Assembly: GCA_965285935.1 (NCBI GenBank)
Contig: OZ260661.1
Location: forward strand, 93,062,001-93,126,000
Origin: Ophelia neglecta
Lineage: Eukaryota
Length of the DNA stretch: 64,000 nt
Direction of reading: 5' to 3'
Part shown: one piece after another, positions 1 to 27,000 of the stretch
Layout: every line of letters starts with the position of its first letter
Position numbering within the stretch: the first letter of the stretch is position 1
Program-made: the position numbers

Positions 1-3000
1 TCTCGCGGAGAGCCCGGACCCGCCGGCCCAACCGGCGAGAGGGGCGAATCTGGTTTACCAGGTCCTTCGGGACCAGCTGGACCCTCGGGACCGGCCGGCT
101 CCCCCGGACAAAGAGGAGAACAAGGACCAAGAGGAGAATCGGGAACTCCAGGACCATCTGGTACGTACATTTAAAGCTGGAATTAGAGATTTGATAGAAT
201 TATTAAACGATACAATATCTTCGGTATTTAATTATTCGCGGCAAATAATGGCGAACACTTTATTATTTCAGGATCTCCCGGTCAACCCGGACCGTCAGGA
301 TCTCGAGGTGAACCAGGACCCGCAGGACCACAAGGTCAAAGGGGTCAATCTGGTGAACGAGGTGAAACAGGACCGGCTGGTCCCTCCGGACCCTCAGGTC
401 CTGCTGGACCCGCTGGTGAAAGGGGAGAACCAGGCCCTGCCGGGTCACAAGGACCAAGCGGATCAAGGGGAGAGCCAGGTCAAGCCGGAGAGGCTGGAAG
501 ACCAGGCCCACAAGGGCAATCTGGATTCCCTGGACCTGCTGGACAAAGAGGCGAGAGCGGGCTTCCTGGCTCACCCGGGCCACAAGGACCAAGAGGTGAA
601 ACAGGTACAGCAGGAAGTGTCGGGGAACAAGGACCGCCAGGTCCCGCTGGATCTAGAGGAGAGTCAGGACCCGCTGGAACACCTGGCTCAAGGGGAGAAA
701 CTGGTCCCCAGGGACCTGCAGGAGAACGTGGAGAGCCCGGACCATCCGGACCCGCAGGTCCCTCTGGGCAAGCTGGACCCTCTGGGCCAGCCGGTCCCAG
801 AGGAGAGGCTGGTCCCCGGGGAGAATCGGGTACGCCAGGATCTTCTGGACAAAGAGGAGAGCCAGGAACAGCTGGTCCACGAGGAGAAGCAGGACCCCAA
901 GGTCCACAGGGCGCAAGAGGCGCTCCCGGTGAACGAGGAGAGTCAGGTACCCCAGGCTCTGCCGGCCAACGAGGAGAATCAGGACCACAGGGTCCAACAG
1001 GCCAATCAGGTCCTTCCGGACCTGCCGGACCCCCTGGACCAAGAGGTGAGACAGGACAAAGAGGTGAAAGCGGACCTCAAGGACCAGCAGGAACTCCAGG
1101 AGAGCGCGGAGAAAGCGGTCTAACAGGACCATCCGGTCCTGCTGGCCCAGCTGGTGAATCCGGAAGGCCAGGAGAACAAGGATCGCCAGGACCTTCAGGT
1201 AGGCTCATCTGTCGATAGTATTCTCTTCTTTGTTTCTTTCAATAGTTAACCTTCATTGACCATATAACATACATAAAATGTTTGGATAACATGGGATAAA
1301 CGCAATTTTGTAGGAGGACCTGGCCCAGCTGGCCCTGCTGGAAGCCGCGGAGAATCTGGCCTACCAGGACCCTCAGGTCCGAGAGGTGAGGCAGGAACTC
1401 CAGGAAGCCCAGGACAGCGAGGAGAACCAGGACCTGCAGGACCTAGTGGCCCAGCAGGAAGTCAAGGACCATCTGGGCCGGCTGGTTCCCCAGGGCCCAG
1501 AGGAGAGCGAGGCGAAACTGGTCCCGCCGGACCTGCAGGTAATTTCATGACCGGTCATTTGCGTACTTTATCTTCCCAATTGTTTATGCATTTGTCATTA
1601 GCTTTGAATCTTAGATAAATTATTGCAGCCTTTTATTGTTTACAAACTGAGGAACGGGTGATGAAATAATAAGAAGACAAATTTCATATTTACGGTAGAT
1701 ATGTCATTTTGCAAAAGCAAAAGTCTAAAAAGTGCCCTTGTCTGTATATTAAAGGAGAGTCAGGATCCCCTGGTCCAGGAGGAGAGAGGGGAGAGCCAGG
1801 ACCAGCAGGACCCAGTGGACCAGCAGGTCCCCGCGGTGAAGCAGGCCCTGCAGGGCCAAGTGGATCAAGAGGCGAGTCCGGACCAGCTGGACCAGCTGGA
1901 CCATCTGGACCTGCCGGTCAACGAGGCGAACCTGGACCCAGAGGAGAAGCTGGACCTCGTGGAGAGTCTGGAACTCCAGGAACACCAGGAGAGAGGGGAG
2001 AACCTGGTCTGTCAGGTCCAACCGGACAGCCAGGCCCATCTGGACCAGCTGGGCCTGCCGGCCCACGCGGTGAATCTGGACCCCGAGGAGAATCTGGCCA
2101 ACCAGGCCCATCAGGGCCGGCTGGACCCGCCGGCCCCGCCGGACCTAGAGGAGAGGTTGGACCACCAGGACCAGCAAGCCAAAGAGGAGAGCCTGGTGCT
2201 AGAGGTCCGCCGGGAGAGGCAGGTACCCCAGGAAGCGCTGGAGAGCGAGGCCCACAAGGTCCTCGAGGACAACCTGGCCCAAGTGGCCCGGCTGGTTCAA
2301 GAGGAGAAGCAGGAACACCAGGCGGACAAGGTCCCAGAGGAGAGGCCGGAACCCCAGGATCCCCAGGTACGTCATTTCACGAAAAAAATTGGACACTAAT
2401 AATGATTGTCAAGTAAGAACTATTTTTCATGTGTTTTGAAGGCCAATTTCTACATACGATTTTTATATGACTGGCAGGATCTGATGGAAGCCCAGGACCT
2501 GCAGGCCCTCGTGGAGAATCAGGAACTCCGGGAGGTGCAGGAGAGACTGGACCAGCTGGACCTTCTGGACCAGCTGGACCTGCTGGACCTCGTGGTGAGC
2601 CCGGAACACGTGGAGAGCGAGGAGAGGTTGGACCTGCTGGGCCTAGCGGACCAGCTGGACCTCGTGGAGAAACCGGACCTGCCGGCCAAAGTGGCCAGCC
2701 AGGACCTCGTGGTGAAACTGGTAAGTCCAGTCATTGGTTATAACGAAATAGACAAGCATTAACCTCCTTTTACACTTTACATAGTGATATGGTGAATGAT
2801 GTAGACGCTTTTGAGTCGGTATTTTAGGAAAACATTTATTTTTATGTTTAAAATTACAAAAGATAGATGTCTTGATATGATTTTGCGTCTATTTACAGGA
2901 TCCCCTGGACCTAGCGGACAATCTGGTCCTAGTGGACCAGCTGGACCATCGGGACCATCTGGGCAACCAGGTCAACCAGGATCAAGAGGAGAACCTGGAC

Positions 3001-24000: not shown

Positions 24001-27000
24001 AGGCCCTGCAGGGCCCACGGGAGAAACCGGACCAGCAGGATCACCTGGCGAACCTGGACCTTCCGGCCCACGTGGAGAAGCCGGCCCAGCTGGACCTTCA
24101 GGACAGAGAGGCGAGCCCGGGTCACCTGGGCCGCGTGGAGAGGCAGGACCAGCAGGTCCTTCAGGACCCCTTGGACAATCAGGACCACCAGGTCCAATTG
24201 GTGAATCAGGTCCTCGTGGACAACCAGGATCGAGAGGAGAAACTGGACCAGCTGGAGAACCAGGTTCGTAAAATATACTATATATTTTATAATATATAAA
24301 ATAATGAGATAATTGAAATAAATTGTTGCAGAATAATTTTATATGATCACGCTATTGTAGCATGGTATGAAGCAAATTCTATGTTTTATTTTATTATAGG
24401 TCCGGCGGGACCAAGTGGCCCATCTGGACCAAGAGGTGAATCTGGACCACAGGGACCAAGCGGTCCTTCTGGAACACCTGGCACACGAGGAGAGATTGGA
24501 CCACCAGGACCAAGCGGACAGCGCGGAGAAAGAGGACCAGCAGGAGAGGCTGGACCACAGGGTCCATCTGGATTAGCCGGACCACGTGGCGAGGCAGGGC
24601 CTTCCGGACCTTCAGGTCCTTCAGGTCCTTCAGGAGAACCTGGATCACCTGGACCTCGCGGCGAGCCAGGTCCATCAGGACAGACCGGACAACCTGGCCC
24701 TGCAGGTCAACCTGGCCCACGAGGAGAACCAGGGTCAAGAGGAGAATCTGGACAACGTGGACAATCTGGACCACCTGGACCAAGAGGTGAATCTGGCCCA
24801 CAAGGACAATCTGGCCCACCAGGGCCCTCGGGACCTTTGGGACCATCAGGACCTCGAGGAGAACCTGGACCAGCCGGACCAGGATTACCAGGACCTGCAG
24901 GTCCACGAGGAGAGTCTGGACCTCCTGGCCCAATAGGTTCGTACTTGCACCTGCTTTTTTTGTATATTTCAGAGGTTTGTTCTTGTATAAGGTATTTTTT
25001 CTCATATTGAAATGTAAACCCGATTTGTACAGTTAATAAATGGCCTTAAACATAATTTTTCTTAATTCTCACACAGGTCCATCAGGCCCATCTGGCCCAT
25101 CCGGACCACGAGGTGAATCTGGACCACCGGGTCCAGCTGGACAACCAGGACCTCTAGGACCATCAGGACAAAGAGGAGAACCAGGAAACAGAGGACAGTC
25201 AGGTCAACGTGGAGAAGCTGGTCCTCCTGGAGAATCCGGCTTGCCAGGACCAAGTGGTCCAAGAGGCGAGTCTGGACCACCAGGAACACAAGGAAACCAA
25301 GGACCTCCCGGACCACTCGGAGAAGCCGGCCCTGCTGGCCCCATCGGACAACGAGGTGGGCCTGGTCCAAGTGGACCACGAGGAGAAAGTGGCCCAAGCG
25401 GACCACCTGGCCAGAGTGGACCCCGAGGCAACGCTGGTGAACGAGGATCACCTGGAGAAGCCGGACCAGCAGGCCCAGCTGGACCACGTGGTAATCCAGG
25501 TTCTATTGGAACCCGAGGAGAAAGAGGACCACCAGGATCAATGGGACAGTCTGGTCCCCCAGGACCATCAGGCCCGCTCGGACCTGCTGGACCACCCGGC
25601 CCACGAGGTGAATCAGGTGGCTTGGGAGAACCGGGTCCTGCTGGACCCCCTGGCCCACTTGGCCGACCTGGTCCACAAGGACCATCTGGTCCATCTGGTC
25701 CCAGAGGAGAACCAGGACCGAGCGGACCATCTGGACAGGCTGGATTCCAAGGACCACGAGGTGAACCTGGAGAATCTGGACCACCAGGGCCGAGAGGAGA
25801 GAGTGGACCACTTGGTCCATCTGGCCCACCCGGAACAAGAGGAGAATCCGGACCACGAGGTGAACCTGGTTTACCAGGTCCCAACGGCCCAGCGGGAGGA
25901 ACAGGACCAAGCGGTCCCCCCGGACCATTAGGAGGACCTGGCCCATTGGGTCCACGAGGTCCATCAGGAGAAAGAGGCCCACAGGGTCCGAGCGGCCCAA
26001 GAGGAGAACCAGGACCTCCCGGACCATCAGGACAGTCAGGTAACCAAGGTCCTCCAGGACCACTAGGACCAATAGGACCACCAGGTCCACTTGGCGAAAG
26101 AGGAAACGCAGGGCCACCAGGGTCACAGGGTGAATCTGGTGACCCCGGAACTCAAGGACCTGCTGGTCCACCAGGACCGAGAGGGCCAAGCGGAGAACGA
26201 GGACCAGCTGGCGGAGTTGGTCCACCAGGAACCAGAGGAGAGTCAGGTCCACCTGGACGACCTGGGTCCACAGGAGCACCAGGTCCACTGGGAGGTAGAG
26301 GGCCACGCGGACCTATTGGACCATCTGGTCCTCTAGGAAGAACTGGAGAAAGAGGTGGACCAGGCGAGTCCGGACCAGCGGGATCACCTGGCTCCAACGG
26401 CCCACCCGGCCCCAGTGGACAGAGGGGACAACCGGGACCACCAGGAACAAGAGGTACAGCTATTTCAAAGTATAAACGTGTCGTTTAATGCCATTACAAT
26501 TATCAATAATTTCGAAGAAATTCTGGCTTAGTAACAAGTGGGAAAGAATCGTAACATAGGGACCCTGTATAACATTAGTTAAACCTGTATTTATAATGTA
26601 TATAAACAACTCGTGTTTGCATTGTGTAGGAGGTGACGGCTTGCCAGGAGGACCCGGACCTAATGGCAGACCAGGAGCGACTGGATGGACAGGTGCCCGA
26701 GGAGGAACCGGCTCTTCCGGATTCCCCGGACCATCTGGTCAGCGAGGTTTAGCCGGACCATCTGGTCCTCCAGGAGAGCAAGGTTTGCCTGGAGAAGATG
26801 GTCGCCGTGGAACCAACGGCCAACCCGGCGCAAGCGGACGCCCAGGTAAACACGGAAAATCTGATTTCTCCGAAGTAGAATAGGTTTTAATTGCAATGTC
26901 TGGTAATATTATGAGTAACAAGAACAGTATCATAATCTAAATTGATTCCCTACGGTAAAAATAATAAAATGGCAAGTAAGATTGATAACAATGACTTTGC

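What the first reader, a model, noticed from the sequence alone, without database searches (positions are those of the whole stretch)
1..24936. Atypical triplet code: Pro mainly in X ([12 protein letters not shown]), Arg-Gly-Glu charge pairs, and no Lys or Cys seen
Seen: the helix uses a small vocabulary ([33 protein letters not shown]). GPP is rare in this region. Arg sits mostly at Y, usually followed by Gly-Glu. I saw no Lys or Cys, and no RGD despite abundant RGE, in the in-frame translations. Established: earthworm cuticle collagen carries 4-hydroxyproline largely in X (Gly-Hyp-Ala/Ser), unlike vertebrate collagens, and lysyl-oxidase cross-links need Lys. Inference: this is a substrate for an X-position prolyl hydroxylase, stabilised by Arg/Glu pairs and assembled without Lys cross-links in the helix.
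Basis: partly seen in the sequence, partly recalled or inferred. Interest (0 to 1): 0.68.

Follow-up and report, generated by a model that had tools for sequence, protein, structure and literature searches.

The report
Giant lysine-free cuticle-type collagen gene
The region is the last 28 kb of a giant collagen gene of the kind that builds worm cuticles, written in a very restricted alphabet with no lysine or cysteine, and it appears to end in a membrane anchor.

Summary
Window 1-24936 holds 37 exons of one + strand collagen gene: 6,388 codons and 2,124 Gly-X-Y triplets. Pro is at X in 41.4% of triplets and at Y in 23.4%. GPP occurs 20 times against 206 expected. Arg at Y is followed by Gly-Glu in 413 of 469 cases, and RGD is absent. 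There is no Lys, Cys, His, Met, Trp or Tyr. This reflects selection, not recent duplication or base bias: exon pairs are at most 76% identical, GC3 is 25%, and 1,209 codons lie one substitution from Lys. The Pro partition matches published giant annelid collagens, for example Eisenia andrei at 0.403/0.215 (PMC12403961). 4-Hyp at X is documented in earthworm cuticle collagen (PMC8233474). So the triplet code is a new member of a known kind, and hydroxylation cannot be read from DNA. Beyond the finding, the helix continues to 27741, giving 7,029 residues. It ends in a GPP-rich exon and four Thr-at-Y exons. A phase-compatible last exon follows, encoding a transmembrane helix and a conserved tail. 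Three of 37 homologues carry collagen triplets fused to that tail. The source taxon could not be determined.

The parts
1..160 (+). collagen exon 1 of the window, cut by the window start (Gly-X-Y frame from 7)
   Evidence: open from base 1; donor G|GTACGT at 160/161
272..1198 (+). collagen exon 2 (927 nt)
   Evidence: AG/GT, phase 1, no stop
1314..1538 (+). collagen exon 3 (225 nt)
1755..2366 (+). collagen exon 4 (612 nt), interruption SQR
2478..2720 (+). collagen exon 5 (243 nt)
2899..3159 (+). collagen exon 6 (261 nt)
3267..3995 (+). collagen exon 7 (729 nt)
4103..4615 (+). collagen exon 8 (513 nt)
4726..5166 (+). collagen exon 9 (441 nt)
5278..5790 (+). collagen exon 10 (513 nt)
6062..6970 (+). 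collagen exon 11 (909 nt), interruption SPR
7124..7564 (+). collagen exon 12 (441 nt)
7672..8022 (+). collagen exon 13 (351 nt)
8184..8444 (+). collagen exon 14 (261 nt)
8559..9017 (+). collagen exon 15 (459 nt)
   Evidence: donor G|GTAAGT at 9017/9018
9140..9562 (+). collagen exon 16 (423 nt)
9718..10326 (+). collagen exon 17 (609 nt), two-residue interruption TP
10421..10735 (+). collagen exon 18 (315 nt)
10858..11289 (+). collagen exon 19 (432 nt)
11484..11816 (+). collagen exon 20 (333 nt), interruption SPD
   Evidence: acceptor chosen
11979..12518 (+). collagen exon 21 (540 nt)
12638..13537 (+). collagen exon 22 (900 nt)
   Evidence: Pfam Collagen PF01391 E 5.9e-52
13643..14047 (+). collagen exon 23 (405 nt), interruption SAR
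14228..14695 (+). collagen exon 24 (468 nt)
14804..15388 (+). collagen exon 25 (585 nt)
15496..16098 (+). collagen exon 26 (603 nt)
16382..16840 (+). collagen exon 27 (459 nt)
17186..17905 (+). collagen exon 28 (720 nt)
17994..18587 (+). collagen exon 29 (594 nt)
18700..19293 (+). collagen exon 30 (594 nt)
19384..19842 (+). collagen exon 31 (459 nt)
20038..20811 (+). collagen exon 32 (774 nt)
21141..21590 (+). collagen exon 33 (450 nt)
21965..22675 (+). collagen exon 34 (711 nt)
22867..23478 (+). collagen exon 35 (612 nt)
23661..24263 (+). collagen exon 36 (603 nt)
24400..24936 (+). collagen exon 37 (537 nt), two-residue interruption LP; last exon of the finding
   Evidence: donor G|GTTCGT at 24936/24937
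25077..26453 (+). collagen exon 38 (1,377 nt, 153 triplets): GPP-rich segment with a different code
   Evidence: GPP 21 of 153 against 22.0 expected, GPL 11, no Lys or Cys
26630..26845 (+). collagen exon 39 (216 nt)
   Evidence: Pfam Collagen E 1.3e-15
27003..27101 (+). collagen exon 40 (99 nt), Thr at Y
27280..27387 (+). collagen exon 41 (108 nt)
27619..27741 (+). collagen exon 42 (123 nt), ends ...GAGFL then G|GTAAGA
   Evidence: 28 of 41 residues identical, ungapped, to the N-terminal part of P0132, which runs on into the tail
27898..28418 (+). probable last exon: about 30 juxtamembrane residues, a transmembrane helix, RRIRR, a 120-residue acidic Ser/Thr-rich tail, and stop TAG
   Evidence: AG acceptor after a pyrimidine tract; phase 1 fits the donor at 27741; 31 representative homologues; P0145, P0151 and P0132 carry collagen triplets before the tail
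27987..28055 (+). transmembrane helix inside the last exon (approximate limits)
   Evidence: best 19-residue window has mean Kyte-Doolittle hydropathy 2.25; present in 37 of 37 family members

Best explanation
Window 1-28418 (+ strand) is the 3' part of one giant collagen gene of the type described for annelid cuticles. At least 43 exons lie in the window. They encode 7,029 helix residues, about 2.0 um of triple helix, and the gene is still open at the 5' end.

The main body (exons 1-37) is written in a 14-letter alphabet under strong purifying selection. Triplets are of two kinds. One kind is Gly-Pro-(Ala/Ser/Arg/Gln). The other is Gly-(Glu/Ser/Gln/Thr)-(Pro/Ala/Ser/Arg). Pro therefore occupies X or Y but almost never both. 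Arg at Y is followed by Glu at the next X.

Inferred mechanism:
- As in earthworm cuticle collagen, prolines at both X and Y are 4-hydroxylated.
- Helix stability is spread evenly along the rod by Hyp, Y-Arg and Arg/Glu pairs.
- The lack of Lys, Cys, Tyr and His leaves the helix without any of the usual covalent cross-link chemistries.
- GPP is confined to the 459-residue exon 38 near the C-terminal end. This would give one strong nucleation site for C-to-N zipper folding of a highly repetitive chain.
- The chain probably ends in a type I membrane anchor with a conserved cytoplasmic tail. The anchor would bring three chains into register at the apical epidermal membrane and/or tether cuticle fibres to the cell.

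Shown here: the gene structure, the counts, the signs of selection and the conservation of the tail. Inferred: hydroxylation, the stabilising role of the charge pairs, the nucleation role, the anchoring role, and annelid origin.
For: Gene model: 42 of 42 donors are GT and 42 of 42 acceptors are AG (41 counted plus the last exon). All introns are phase 1. Excluding exon 1, which the window start cuts, 38 of the 41 other collagen exons are multiples of 9 nt. Two of the three exceptions (exons 17 and 37) carry two-residue interruptions. The third, exon 42, ends the helix with two residues (F, L) beyond its last full triplet. Exons are 64.5% GC and introns 31.9% GC.

Code: see the counts.

Selection rather than amplification: the best exon-to-exon nucleotide identity is 64-76%, and there is no intron-to-intron match.

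Selection rather than base bias: GC3 is 25%. 1,209 of 6,388 codons are one substitution from Lys and 1,247 are one substitution from Cys, yet both residues are absent.

Kind: PMC12403961, section 12 and Table 1, reports annelid collagens of 7,719-8,859 aa with G-P-Y of 0.33-0.40 and G-X-P of 0.22-0.33. It also states that the earthworm one has more Pro at Xaa.

Hydroxylation premise: passages of PMC8233474.

C-terminal change of code: exon 38 has GPP 21 of 153 against 22.0 expected. Exons 39-42 have Thr at Y in 22 of 60 triplets.

Anchor:
- The hydropathy peak is followed by RRIRR.
- 31 representative homologues were found, the best at 63% identity over the full length. 7 closer homologues reach up to 81% identity.
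- All 37 carry the helix.
- P0145 and P0151 show collagen triplets fused directly to the tail, and P0132 shows them with an intron-like in-frame insert.
- Exon 42 is 68% identical to the collagen part of P0132.
Against: No taxon, no transcript and no expression data were available.

34 of the 37 tail homologues are stand-alone ORFs of 125-223 aa. Many start with Met, as the window's exon does (ATG at 27900). This is also what a separate small gene would look like. However, these databases call ORFs on unspliced contigs, and several hits start in intron-like sequence.

A search of longer proteins (302-2,000 aa) with the tail found none.

The near-length search with a main-body exon gave only generic collagen hits (identity 35-58% over the best local alignment), so orthology to the published annelid proteins is inferred from composition and size only.

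The amino-acid composition of earthworm cuticle collagen as I recall it (more Asx, less Arg) does not obviously match this chain. I could not retrieve a published table to test that.
Confidence: 0.7

Rival explanations
1. It is a giant collagen of some other tissue or of a non-annelid invertebrate (for example an interstitial, tube, byssus-like or anchoring collagen) that merely shares the composition of annelid cuticle collagens.
For: A membrane anchor with a conserved cytoplasmic tail would suit an anchoring collagen as well as a fibre-forming one.
Against: In the literature I could search, collagens of this size with this Pro partition are reported only from annelids (PMC12403961). A review passage also describes annelid cuticle collagens as having a very long triple helix (PMC11766948).
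Confidence: 0.2
2. The restricted vocabulary is a by-product of recent tandem amplification or gene conversion of one short unit, or of local GC bias, and carries no functional meaning.
For: The sequence is highly repetitive at the protein level. Fifteen triplets make up 84.6% of it.
Against: Exons are only 64-76% identical to their best partner at the nucleotide level, and introns share nothing. Third codon positions are 25% GC, like the introns, so the bias sits in codon positions 1 and 2. About 1,200 codons each lie one step from Lys and from Cys without a single occurrence. Exon 38 of the same gene lacks the GPP avoidance.
Confidence: 0.03
3. The prolines at X are not hydroxylated. The helix is stabilised, as in bacterial collagen-like proteins, by X-Pro, Y-Arg and charge pairs alone, with hydroxylation (if any) only at the 23% Y-Pro.
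For: The pattern of Pro at X, many charged residues and few GPP resembles prokaryotic collagen-like proteins. In the control set these had Pro at X of 0.25-0.44 and at Y of 0.03-0.15. PMC11923368 (passage) describes such proteins as stabilised by Xaa-Pro and about 22% charged residues without Hyp.
Against: [quoted passage not shown] GPA and GPS, the contexts reported to be hydroxylated, are the first and third commonest triplets here (353 and 198 of 2,124).
Confidence: 0.15
4. The ORF at 27900-28418 is a separate small single-pass membrane protein gene that merely lies downstream of the collagen gene, and the collagen ends at exon 42.
For: It starts with ATG. 34 of 37 homologues are ORFs of similar size without collagen triplets. 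No Pfam family matches it.
Against: The donor at 27741 and the acceptor at 27897 are phase-compatible, and a pyrimidine tract precedes the acceptor. P0145 and P0151 read collagen triplets straight into the tail. P0132 carries the homologue of exon 42 (68% identity), an in-frame intron-like stretch and then the tail. Without this exon the open frame runs into the intron for 22 codons with no recognisable C-terminal domain (ORF 27582..27794).
Confidence: 0.25

Closest known systems
Giant annelid collagens reported from genomes and transcriptomes (Eisenia andrei GWHPACBE014886; Alvinella pompejana APscaff0012.353.p1; Paralvinella spp.), PMC12403961 Table 1
   Same: Size class: the published proteins are 7,719-8,859 aa, and here at least 7,029 helix residues are present with the 5' end missing. 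Pro partition: here 0.414 at X and 0.234 at Y, against E. andrei 0.403/0.215 and P. grasslei 0.386/0.264.
   Different: The paper's text that I read does not mention the absence of Lys and Cys, the GPP exclusion, the RGE motif or a membrane anchor.
Earthworm cuticle collagen as a protein (Gly-Hyp-Ser and Gly-Hyp-Ala sequences; Xaa-position 4Hyp by LC-MS, PMC8233474)
   Same: GPA (353) and GPS (198) are the first and third commonest of the 2,124 triplets. They are the contexts in which X-position Hyp was found chemically.
   Different: No chemistry is available for this gene's product. The numbers for earthworm are in supplementary tables that I could not open.
Riftia pachyptila cuticle collagen (glycosylated Thr at Y; Mann et al. 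1996, title seen, content recalled)
   Same: A very long annelid cuticle helix that does not rely on Gly-Pro-Hyp. The last four short exons here have Thr at Y in 22 of 60 triplets.
   Different: In the main body Thr is at Y in only 49 of 2,124 triplets and mostly sits at X (141).
Transmembrane collagens: MACITs (types XIII, XXIII, XXV) and nematode cuticle collagens such as SQT-3 (PMC4678570 abstract; PMC10538796 abstract and passages)
   Same: The collagenous ectodomain is tethered to the plasma membrane by one helix. In nematodes this serves assembly of an apical cuticle, with release by proteolysis.
   Different: Those proteins are type II (cytosolic N-terminus, N-terminal helix), have short interrupted helices and, in nematodes, flanking Cys. 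Here the helix is C-terminal and followed by RRIRR (type I), the rod exceeds 7,000 residues with very few interruptions, and there is no Cys. No dibasic RxxR site is seen in the juxtamembrane stretch.
Vertebrate-type fibrillar collagens
   Same: A long, nearly uninterrupted Gly-X-Y rod with a GPP-rich stretch near the C-terminal end of the helix.
   Different: GPP observed/expected is about 0.6-1.3 in the animal collagens of the control set, against 0.10 here. Lys is present in the controls (7-22 per 58-84 triplets). Exons here are 99-1,377 nt with split Gly codons, whereas fibrillar collagens have 54-nt-based phase 0 exons (recalled). No C-propeptide domain was found downstream.
Bacterial and phage collagen-like proteins
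   Same: Pro is mostly at X, charged residues are many and GPP is scarce.
   Different: The gene has 42 spliceosomal introns. The bacterial controls contain Lys (9-22 per 61-88 triplets).

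Membership tests
Collagen triple-helix repeat (Pfam PF01391) | Match to the profile above the gathering score | tested here: met
   Exon 22: E 5.9e-52, 173.7 bits against a cut-off of 27.2. Exon 39: E 1.3e-15.
Giant annelid cuticle collagen | Very long, almost uninterrupted triple helix (published chains 7,719-8,859 aa) | tested here: met
   7,029 helix codons in the window with 6 interruptions in the first 6,388. The gene is still open at the window start. Comparison from PMC12403961.
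Giant annelid cuticle collagen | Pro partition with X above Y (G-P-Y 0.33-0.40, G-X-P 0.22-0.33) | tested here: met
   0.414 and 0.234, with X above Y in 37 of 37 exons.
Giant annelid cuticle collagen | Encoded in an annelid genome | not testable with these tools
   No named homologue. No RNA markers.
Giant annelid cuticle collagen | Made by epidermis and present in the cuticle; 4-Hyp at X in the mature protein | not testable with these tools
   Needs expression data and mass spectrometry.
Fibrillar collagens (clades A-C) | C-terminal fibrillar collagen NC1 (COLFI) propeptide and a helix of about 1,014 residues | tested here: not met
   Downstream ORFs and the last exon give no such domain. 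The helix is about seven times longer.
Type II transmembrane collagens (MACITs, nematode cuticle collagens) | N-terminal cytosolic domain and N-terminal membrane helix; for nematodes, Cys clusters flanking short helices | tested here: not met
   The membrane helix is at the C-terminal end with basic residues after it. There are 0 Cys in 7,029 helix codons. The N-terminus of the gene is outside the window, so a second N-terminal helix cannot be excluded.
Conserved single-pass tail family (unnamed; alignment A1) | Membrane helix with invariant Trp, a following basic cluster, SDAESG-like and GLYDD-like motifs, and a C-terminal LFxPDxGSSF-like end | tested here: met
   phmmer gave 31 representatives with E up to 0.001, the best at 1.3e-54. 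Alignment of 24 sequences has invariant W36, R56 and D67. No Pfam family. Only helix-level matches in the PDB.

The most novel reading that the evidence does not exclude
The giant cuticle-type collagen is a type I membrane protein. A C-terminal transmembrane helix, a short juxtamembrane segment and a conserved cytoplasmic tail replace the C-propeptide of fibrillar collagens. They bring three chains of more than 7,000 residues into register at the apical membrane. The only GPP-rich segment lies next to this anchor, so folding has a single nucleus, and GPP is excluded from the rest of the rod to prevent out-of-register nucleation. The rod itself contains no cross-linkable residue at all. This would be a collagen architecture with the opposite membrane orientation to every described transmembrane collagen.
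Probability: 0.4. Interest if true: 0.7.

Novelty: new member of a known kind. Interest (0 to 1): 0.5.

Why it matters
Annelid cuticle collagens are the longest known collagen molecules. They are also the classic exception to the rule that 4-hydroxyproline sits at Y. Even so, almost nothing has been written about their genes. This window gives about 7,000 residues of such a chain at exon resolution and yields four concrete points:
- X-Pro and Y-Pro are mutually exclusive. This defines two separate substrate contexts for prolyl hydroxylation, which can be tested with peptides.
- The rod is kept free of Lys, Cys, His, Tyr, Met and Trp by selection.
- Arg(Y)-Gly-Glu(X) is the dominant charge motif.
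- The code changes abruptly near the C-terminal end.

If the C-terminal membrane anchor is real, it offers an answer to how three very long, repetitive chains find their register without a C-propeptide. It would also be the first type I transmembrane collagen that I could find any trace of.

Tried and rejected
Taxon and names:
- Homologue search with main-body exon 22, near lengths, gave only generic collagen hits: fish otolin, MARCO, phage tail fibres and bacterial collagen-like proteins. Identity was 35-58% over the best local alignment, and no orthologue was found.
- The tail searched against longer proteins (302-2,000 aa) gave no hit. The tool itself calls this weak evidence, and full-length chains would exceed 2,000 aa.
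- The Atlas gave only weak leads for the tail, to single-pass membrane proteins at scores up to 0.81, which I treat as no evidence. It was closed for the LINE ORF and for P0123.
- Rfam and tRNA scans for lineage markers found nothing.

Structure:
- A PDB profile search with the tail alignment gave only matches to the membrane helix of ACE and ACE2 (E 0.011-0.99). I reject these as composition matches.
- A trimer prediction of the juxtamembrane and membrane segment was never accepted: the queue was full, and there was no usable answer.
- A monomer fold was not accepted.
- Neither prediction says anything about the protein.

Literature:
- Published amino-acid tables for earthworm or Nereis cuticle collagen could not be retrieved. 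The old scans hold only abstracts and references, the Goldstein and Adams paper is not held, and supplements are closed.
- No paper matched a search for 'C-terminal transmembrane' together with 'transmembrane collagen'. None described a membrane domain in an annelid cuticle collagen.

Considered and rejected:
- The long ORFs on the minus strand across the exons are a by-product of the periodic GC-rich coding sequence. All 46 Gly-X-Y runs of at least 8 triplets are on the + strand.
- Nothing suggests a human contig.

Full report
WHAT IS THERE

The window is GC-rich (53-61%) up to about 26 kb and 37-43% beyond that. All 46 runs of at least 8 Gly-X-Y triplets lie on the + strand between 7 and 27734. 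Their edges show a regular gene structure. Every run starts at the G of an AG acceptor and ends at G|GT. All introns are therefore phase 1 and split a Gly codon.

After three edges were corrected by eye, the model has 42 collagen exons plus one further exon. 42 of 42 donors are GT and 42 of 42 acceptors are AG. Introns are 88-374 nt (median 122) and 31.9% GC. Exons 1-37 are 64.5% GC.

Leaving out exon 1, which the window start cuts, 38 of the 41 other collagen exons are multiples of 9 nt. Exons 17 and 37 are not, and each carries a two-residue interruption. Exon 42 is not either; it ends the helix with two residues beyond its last full triplet. The first exon is cut by the window start, so the gene continues upstream. 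There is no N in the window.

I built no spliced model. All counts were summed per exon and all searches were made exon by exon. Comparisons that need the joined protein were left out.

CHECK OF THE OBSERVATION

Exons 1-37 (8-24936) hold 6,388 codons, 2,124 in-register triplets and six interruptions.
- Position X: Pro 879 (41.4%), Glu 542, Ser 225, Gln 212, Thr 141.
- Position Y: Ala 571, Pro 498 (23.4%), Arg 469, Ser 350, Gln 120.
Fifteen triplets cover 84.6%.
- GPP occurs 20 times against 206 expected under independence (P 1.5e-102).
- 413 of the 469 Arg at Y are followed by Gly-Glu. RGE occurs 416 times and RGD never.
- Successive RGE motifs are most often 6 or 12 residues apart (101 and 75 of 379 gaps). 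[12 protein letters not shown] and GQRGEP are the commonest hexapeptides.
- Lys, Cys, His, Met, Trp and Tyr are absent and Phe occurs once. Fourteen residue types are used.
- The 6 Lys and 2 Cys of the untrimmed frames all lie in the intron-derived triplet after the donor.
- Pro at X exceeds Pro at Y in all 37 exons.

The observation therefore stands, with two amendments. Y-Pro is substantial, and the sharper statement is that X-Pro and Y-Pro exclude each other.

MORE THAN CHANCE, AND NOT AN ARTEFACT OF REPETITION

Among the 120 listed collagen-like hits, the median is 0.145 Lys per triplet and only 3 lack Lys. The animal collagens among them have GPP close to expectation.

Exons are only 64-76% identical to their best partner at the nucleotide level, and introns share nothing. 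The vocabulary is therefore not the trace of recent amplification.

Third codon positions are 25% GC. The exon GC thus comes from the amino acids, against an AT-leaning background. 1,209 codons are one substitution from Lys (208 Arg codons are AGA) and 1,247 are one substitution from Cys, yet neither residue occurs. This points to purifying selection on the alphabet.

WHAT LIES BEYOND THE FINDING

The helix continues past 24936.
- Exon 38 (25077-26453, 153 triplets) uses a different code. GPP occurs 21 times against 22.0 expected, GPL 11 times, and RGE only 14 times.
- Exons 39-42 (216, 99, 108 and 123 nt) are different again. Thr is at Y in 22 of 60 triplets, and Trp, Phe and Tyr appear at X.
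- None of these exons has Lys or Cys. This gives 7,029 helix codons without either residue. At the textbook rise of 0.286 nm per residue, that is about 2.0 um of helix.

Exon 42 ends ...GAGFL followed by G|GTAAGA. After 156 nt and a pyrimidine tract, an AG at 27896-27897 opens an exon in the matching phase. That exon encodes:
- about 30 polar residues;
- a strongly hydrophobic helix (mean hydropathy 2.25 over 19 residues);
- RRIRR;
- a 120-residue tail with 22 acidic residues and 26 Ser/Thr;
- a stop at 28416-28418.

Pfam has no family for it.

An exhaustive phmmer search found 31 representative homologues, the best at 63% identity over the full length. The word-indexed search found 7 homologues, with up to 81% identity. 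All are unnamed. All 37 carry the helix. In an alignment of 24 of them, one Trp in the helix, one Arg after it and one Asp in the tail are invariant, and several tail motifs recur.

Most are ORF-sized fragments, and some begin in what looks like intron sequence. Three are informative. P0145 and P0151 read collagen triplets directly into the tail at the position predicted for the splice junction. P0132 reads a homologue of exon 42 (28 of 41 identical), then an in-frame intron-like stretch, then the tail.

I conclude, with moderate confidence, that the tail exon is the last exon of the collagen gene. The basic cluster after the helix implies a type I orientation, with the rod outside the cell.

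WHAT IT IS MOST LIKE

I read section 12 and Table 1 of PMC12403961.
- It reports collagens of 7,719-8,859 aa in alvinellid annelids and 'such a collagen' in the earthworm Eisenia andrei.
- The table gives Pro at X of 0.33-0.40 and at Y of 0.22-0.33 (E. andrei 0.403/0.215).
- It remarks that earthworms have more Pro at Xaa.

The window's values (0.414/0.234) fall in that group.

Other literature seen:
- Passages of PMC8233474 state that Xaa-position 4Hyp is especially high in earthworm cuticle collagen, and that Gly-4Hyp-Yaa tripeptides are abundant only there. The numbers are in supplementary tables I could not open.
- The 1970 paper on glycylhydroxyprolylserine was seen only as a title in a reference list.

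On this basis the triplet code is a new member of a known kind. Hydroxylation of this product remains an inference.

One quantitative point follows from the counts. Y-Pro supplies only 78 residues per 1,000 and X-Pro 138. A mature protein with the very high Hyp and very low Pro that I recall for earthworm cuticle collagen (recalled, not retrieved) could therefore not be made without hydroxylating X.

HOW IT PROBABLY WORKS

Shown:
- There are two classes of triplet, Gly-Pro-(Ala/Ser/Arg/Gln) and Gly-(Glu/Ser/Gln/Thr)-(Pro/Ala/Ser/Arg).
- Arg(Y)-Gly-Glu(X) is the charge unit.
- No residue able to form lysyl-oxidase, disulfide or dityrosine cross-links is present.

Inferred:
- There are two substrate contexts for prolyl 4-hydroxylation.
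- Stability is spread evenly by Hyp, Y-Arg (recalled to be about as stabilising as Hyp in model peptides) and Arg/Glu pairs.
- The rod is held in the cuticle by non-covalent packing and perhaps by glycans on Ser and Thr (recalled for earthworm). This fits the old description of a 'soluble' earthworm cuticle collagen (title and abstract start).
- The restriction of GPP to exon 38, next to the anchor, suggests a single folding nucleus. Collagens fold from a C-terminal nucleus like a zip (abstract start of PMC11923368). Internal GPP clusters in a repetitive chain of this length would invite misregistered nucleation.
- The membrane helix and juxtamembrane segment would bring three chains together. 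By analogy, a short sequence next to the membrane helix is needed for trimerisation of type XIII collagen (title only, in a reference list).
- The conserved tail suggests an interaction inside the cell, either for sorting to the apical surface or for tethering fibres.

All known membrane collagens that I could read about are type II. These are MACITs (PMC4678570, abstract start) and nematode cuticle collagens such as SQT-3 (PMC10538796). Two searches found no description of a C-terminal anchor.

LIMITS
- The organism is unknown.
- No transcript evidence was available.
- The full-length published annelid proteins could not be compared.
- Amino-acid tables for cuticle collagens were not retrievable.
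- The trimer and fold predictions could not be run.

VERDICT

The gene is a new member of the giant annelid-type cuticle collagens. The Lys- and Cys-free alphabet, the GPP exclusion and, above all, the probable C-terminal membrane anchor are the points worth following up.

Noticed in passing
window 27898-28418 (+): Probable last exon of the collagen gene. It encodes a transmembrane helix, a basic cluster and a conserved 120-residue acidic tail. It belongs to an unnamed family (31 representatives), and three members carry collagen triplets in front of the tail.
   Followed up: yes
window 25077-26453 (+): A single 1,377-nt exon with a different triplet code. GPP is at its expected frequency (21 of 153) and GPL is common. 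It is a candidate folding nucleus next to the C-terminal end.
   Followed up: partly
window 26630-27741 (+): Four short exons (216, 99, 108 and 123 nt) with Thr at Y in 22 of 60 triplets and Trp, Phe or Tyr at X. This is reminiscent of the Thr-rich cuticle collagen reported from Riftia.
   Followed up: partly
window 1755-24936 (+), six sites: There are only six breaks in 2,124 triplets. Four replace Gly with Ser (SQR, SPR, SPD, SAR) and two are two-residue inserts (TP, LP).
   Followed up: partly
window 33784-39044 (+): A non-LTR retrotransposon with two long open frames. One is a 581-aa ORF without a Pfam match. The other is a 1,176-aa ORF with endonuclease (PF03372) and reverse transcriptase (PF00078) domains. 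Both look intact.
   Followed up: partly
window about 30870-45400 and 52640-61850 (-): Exons of two tandem copies of a malate/L-lactate dehydrogenase family (Ldh_2, PF02615) gene. The first exons (45153-45398 and 61606-61848) are nearly identical. The retrotransposon lies between exons of the first copy.
   Followed up: partly
window 1-26500 (-): Many long open frames on the minus strand and in the other + frames across the collagen exons. They are a mechanical consequence of the periodic GC-rich coding sequence, not genes.
   Followed up: yes
window 49181-49468: Overlapping ORFs on both strands with a short duplicated Lys-rich / poly-T stretch. It is probably a small tandem duplication in intergenic DNA.
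   Followed up: no
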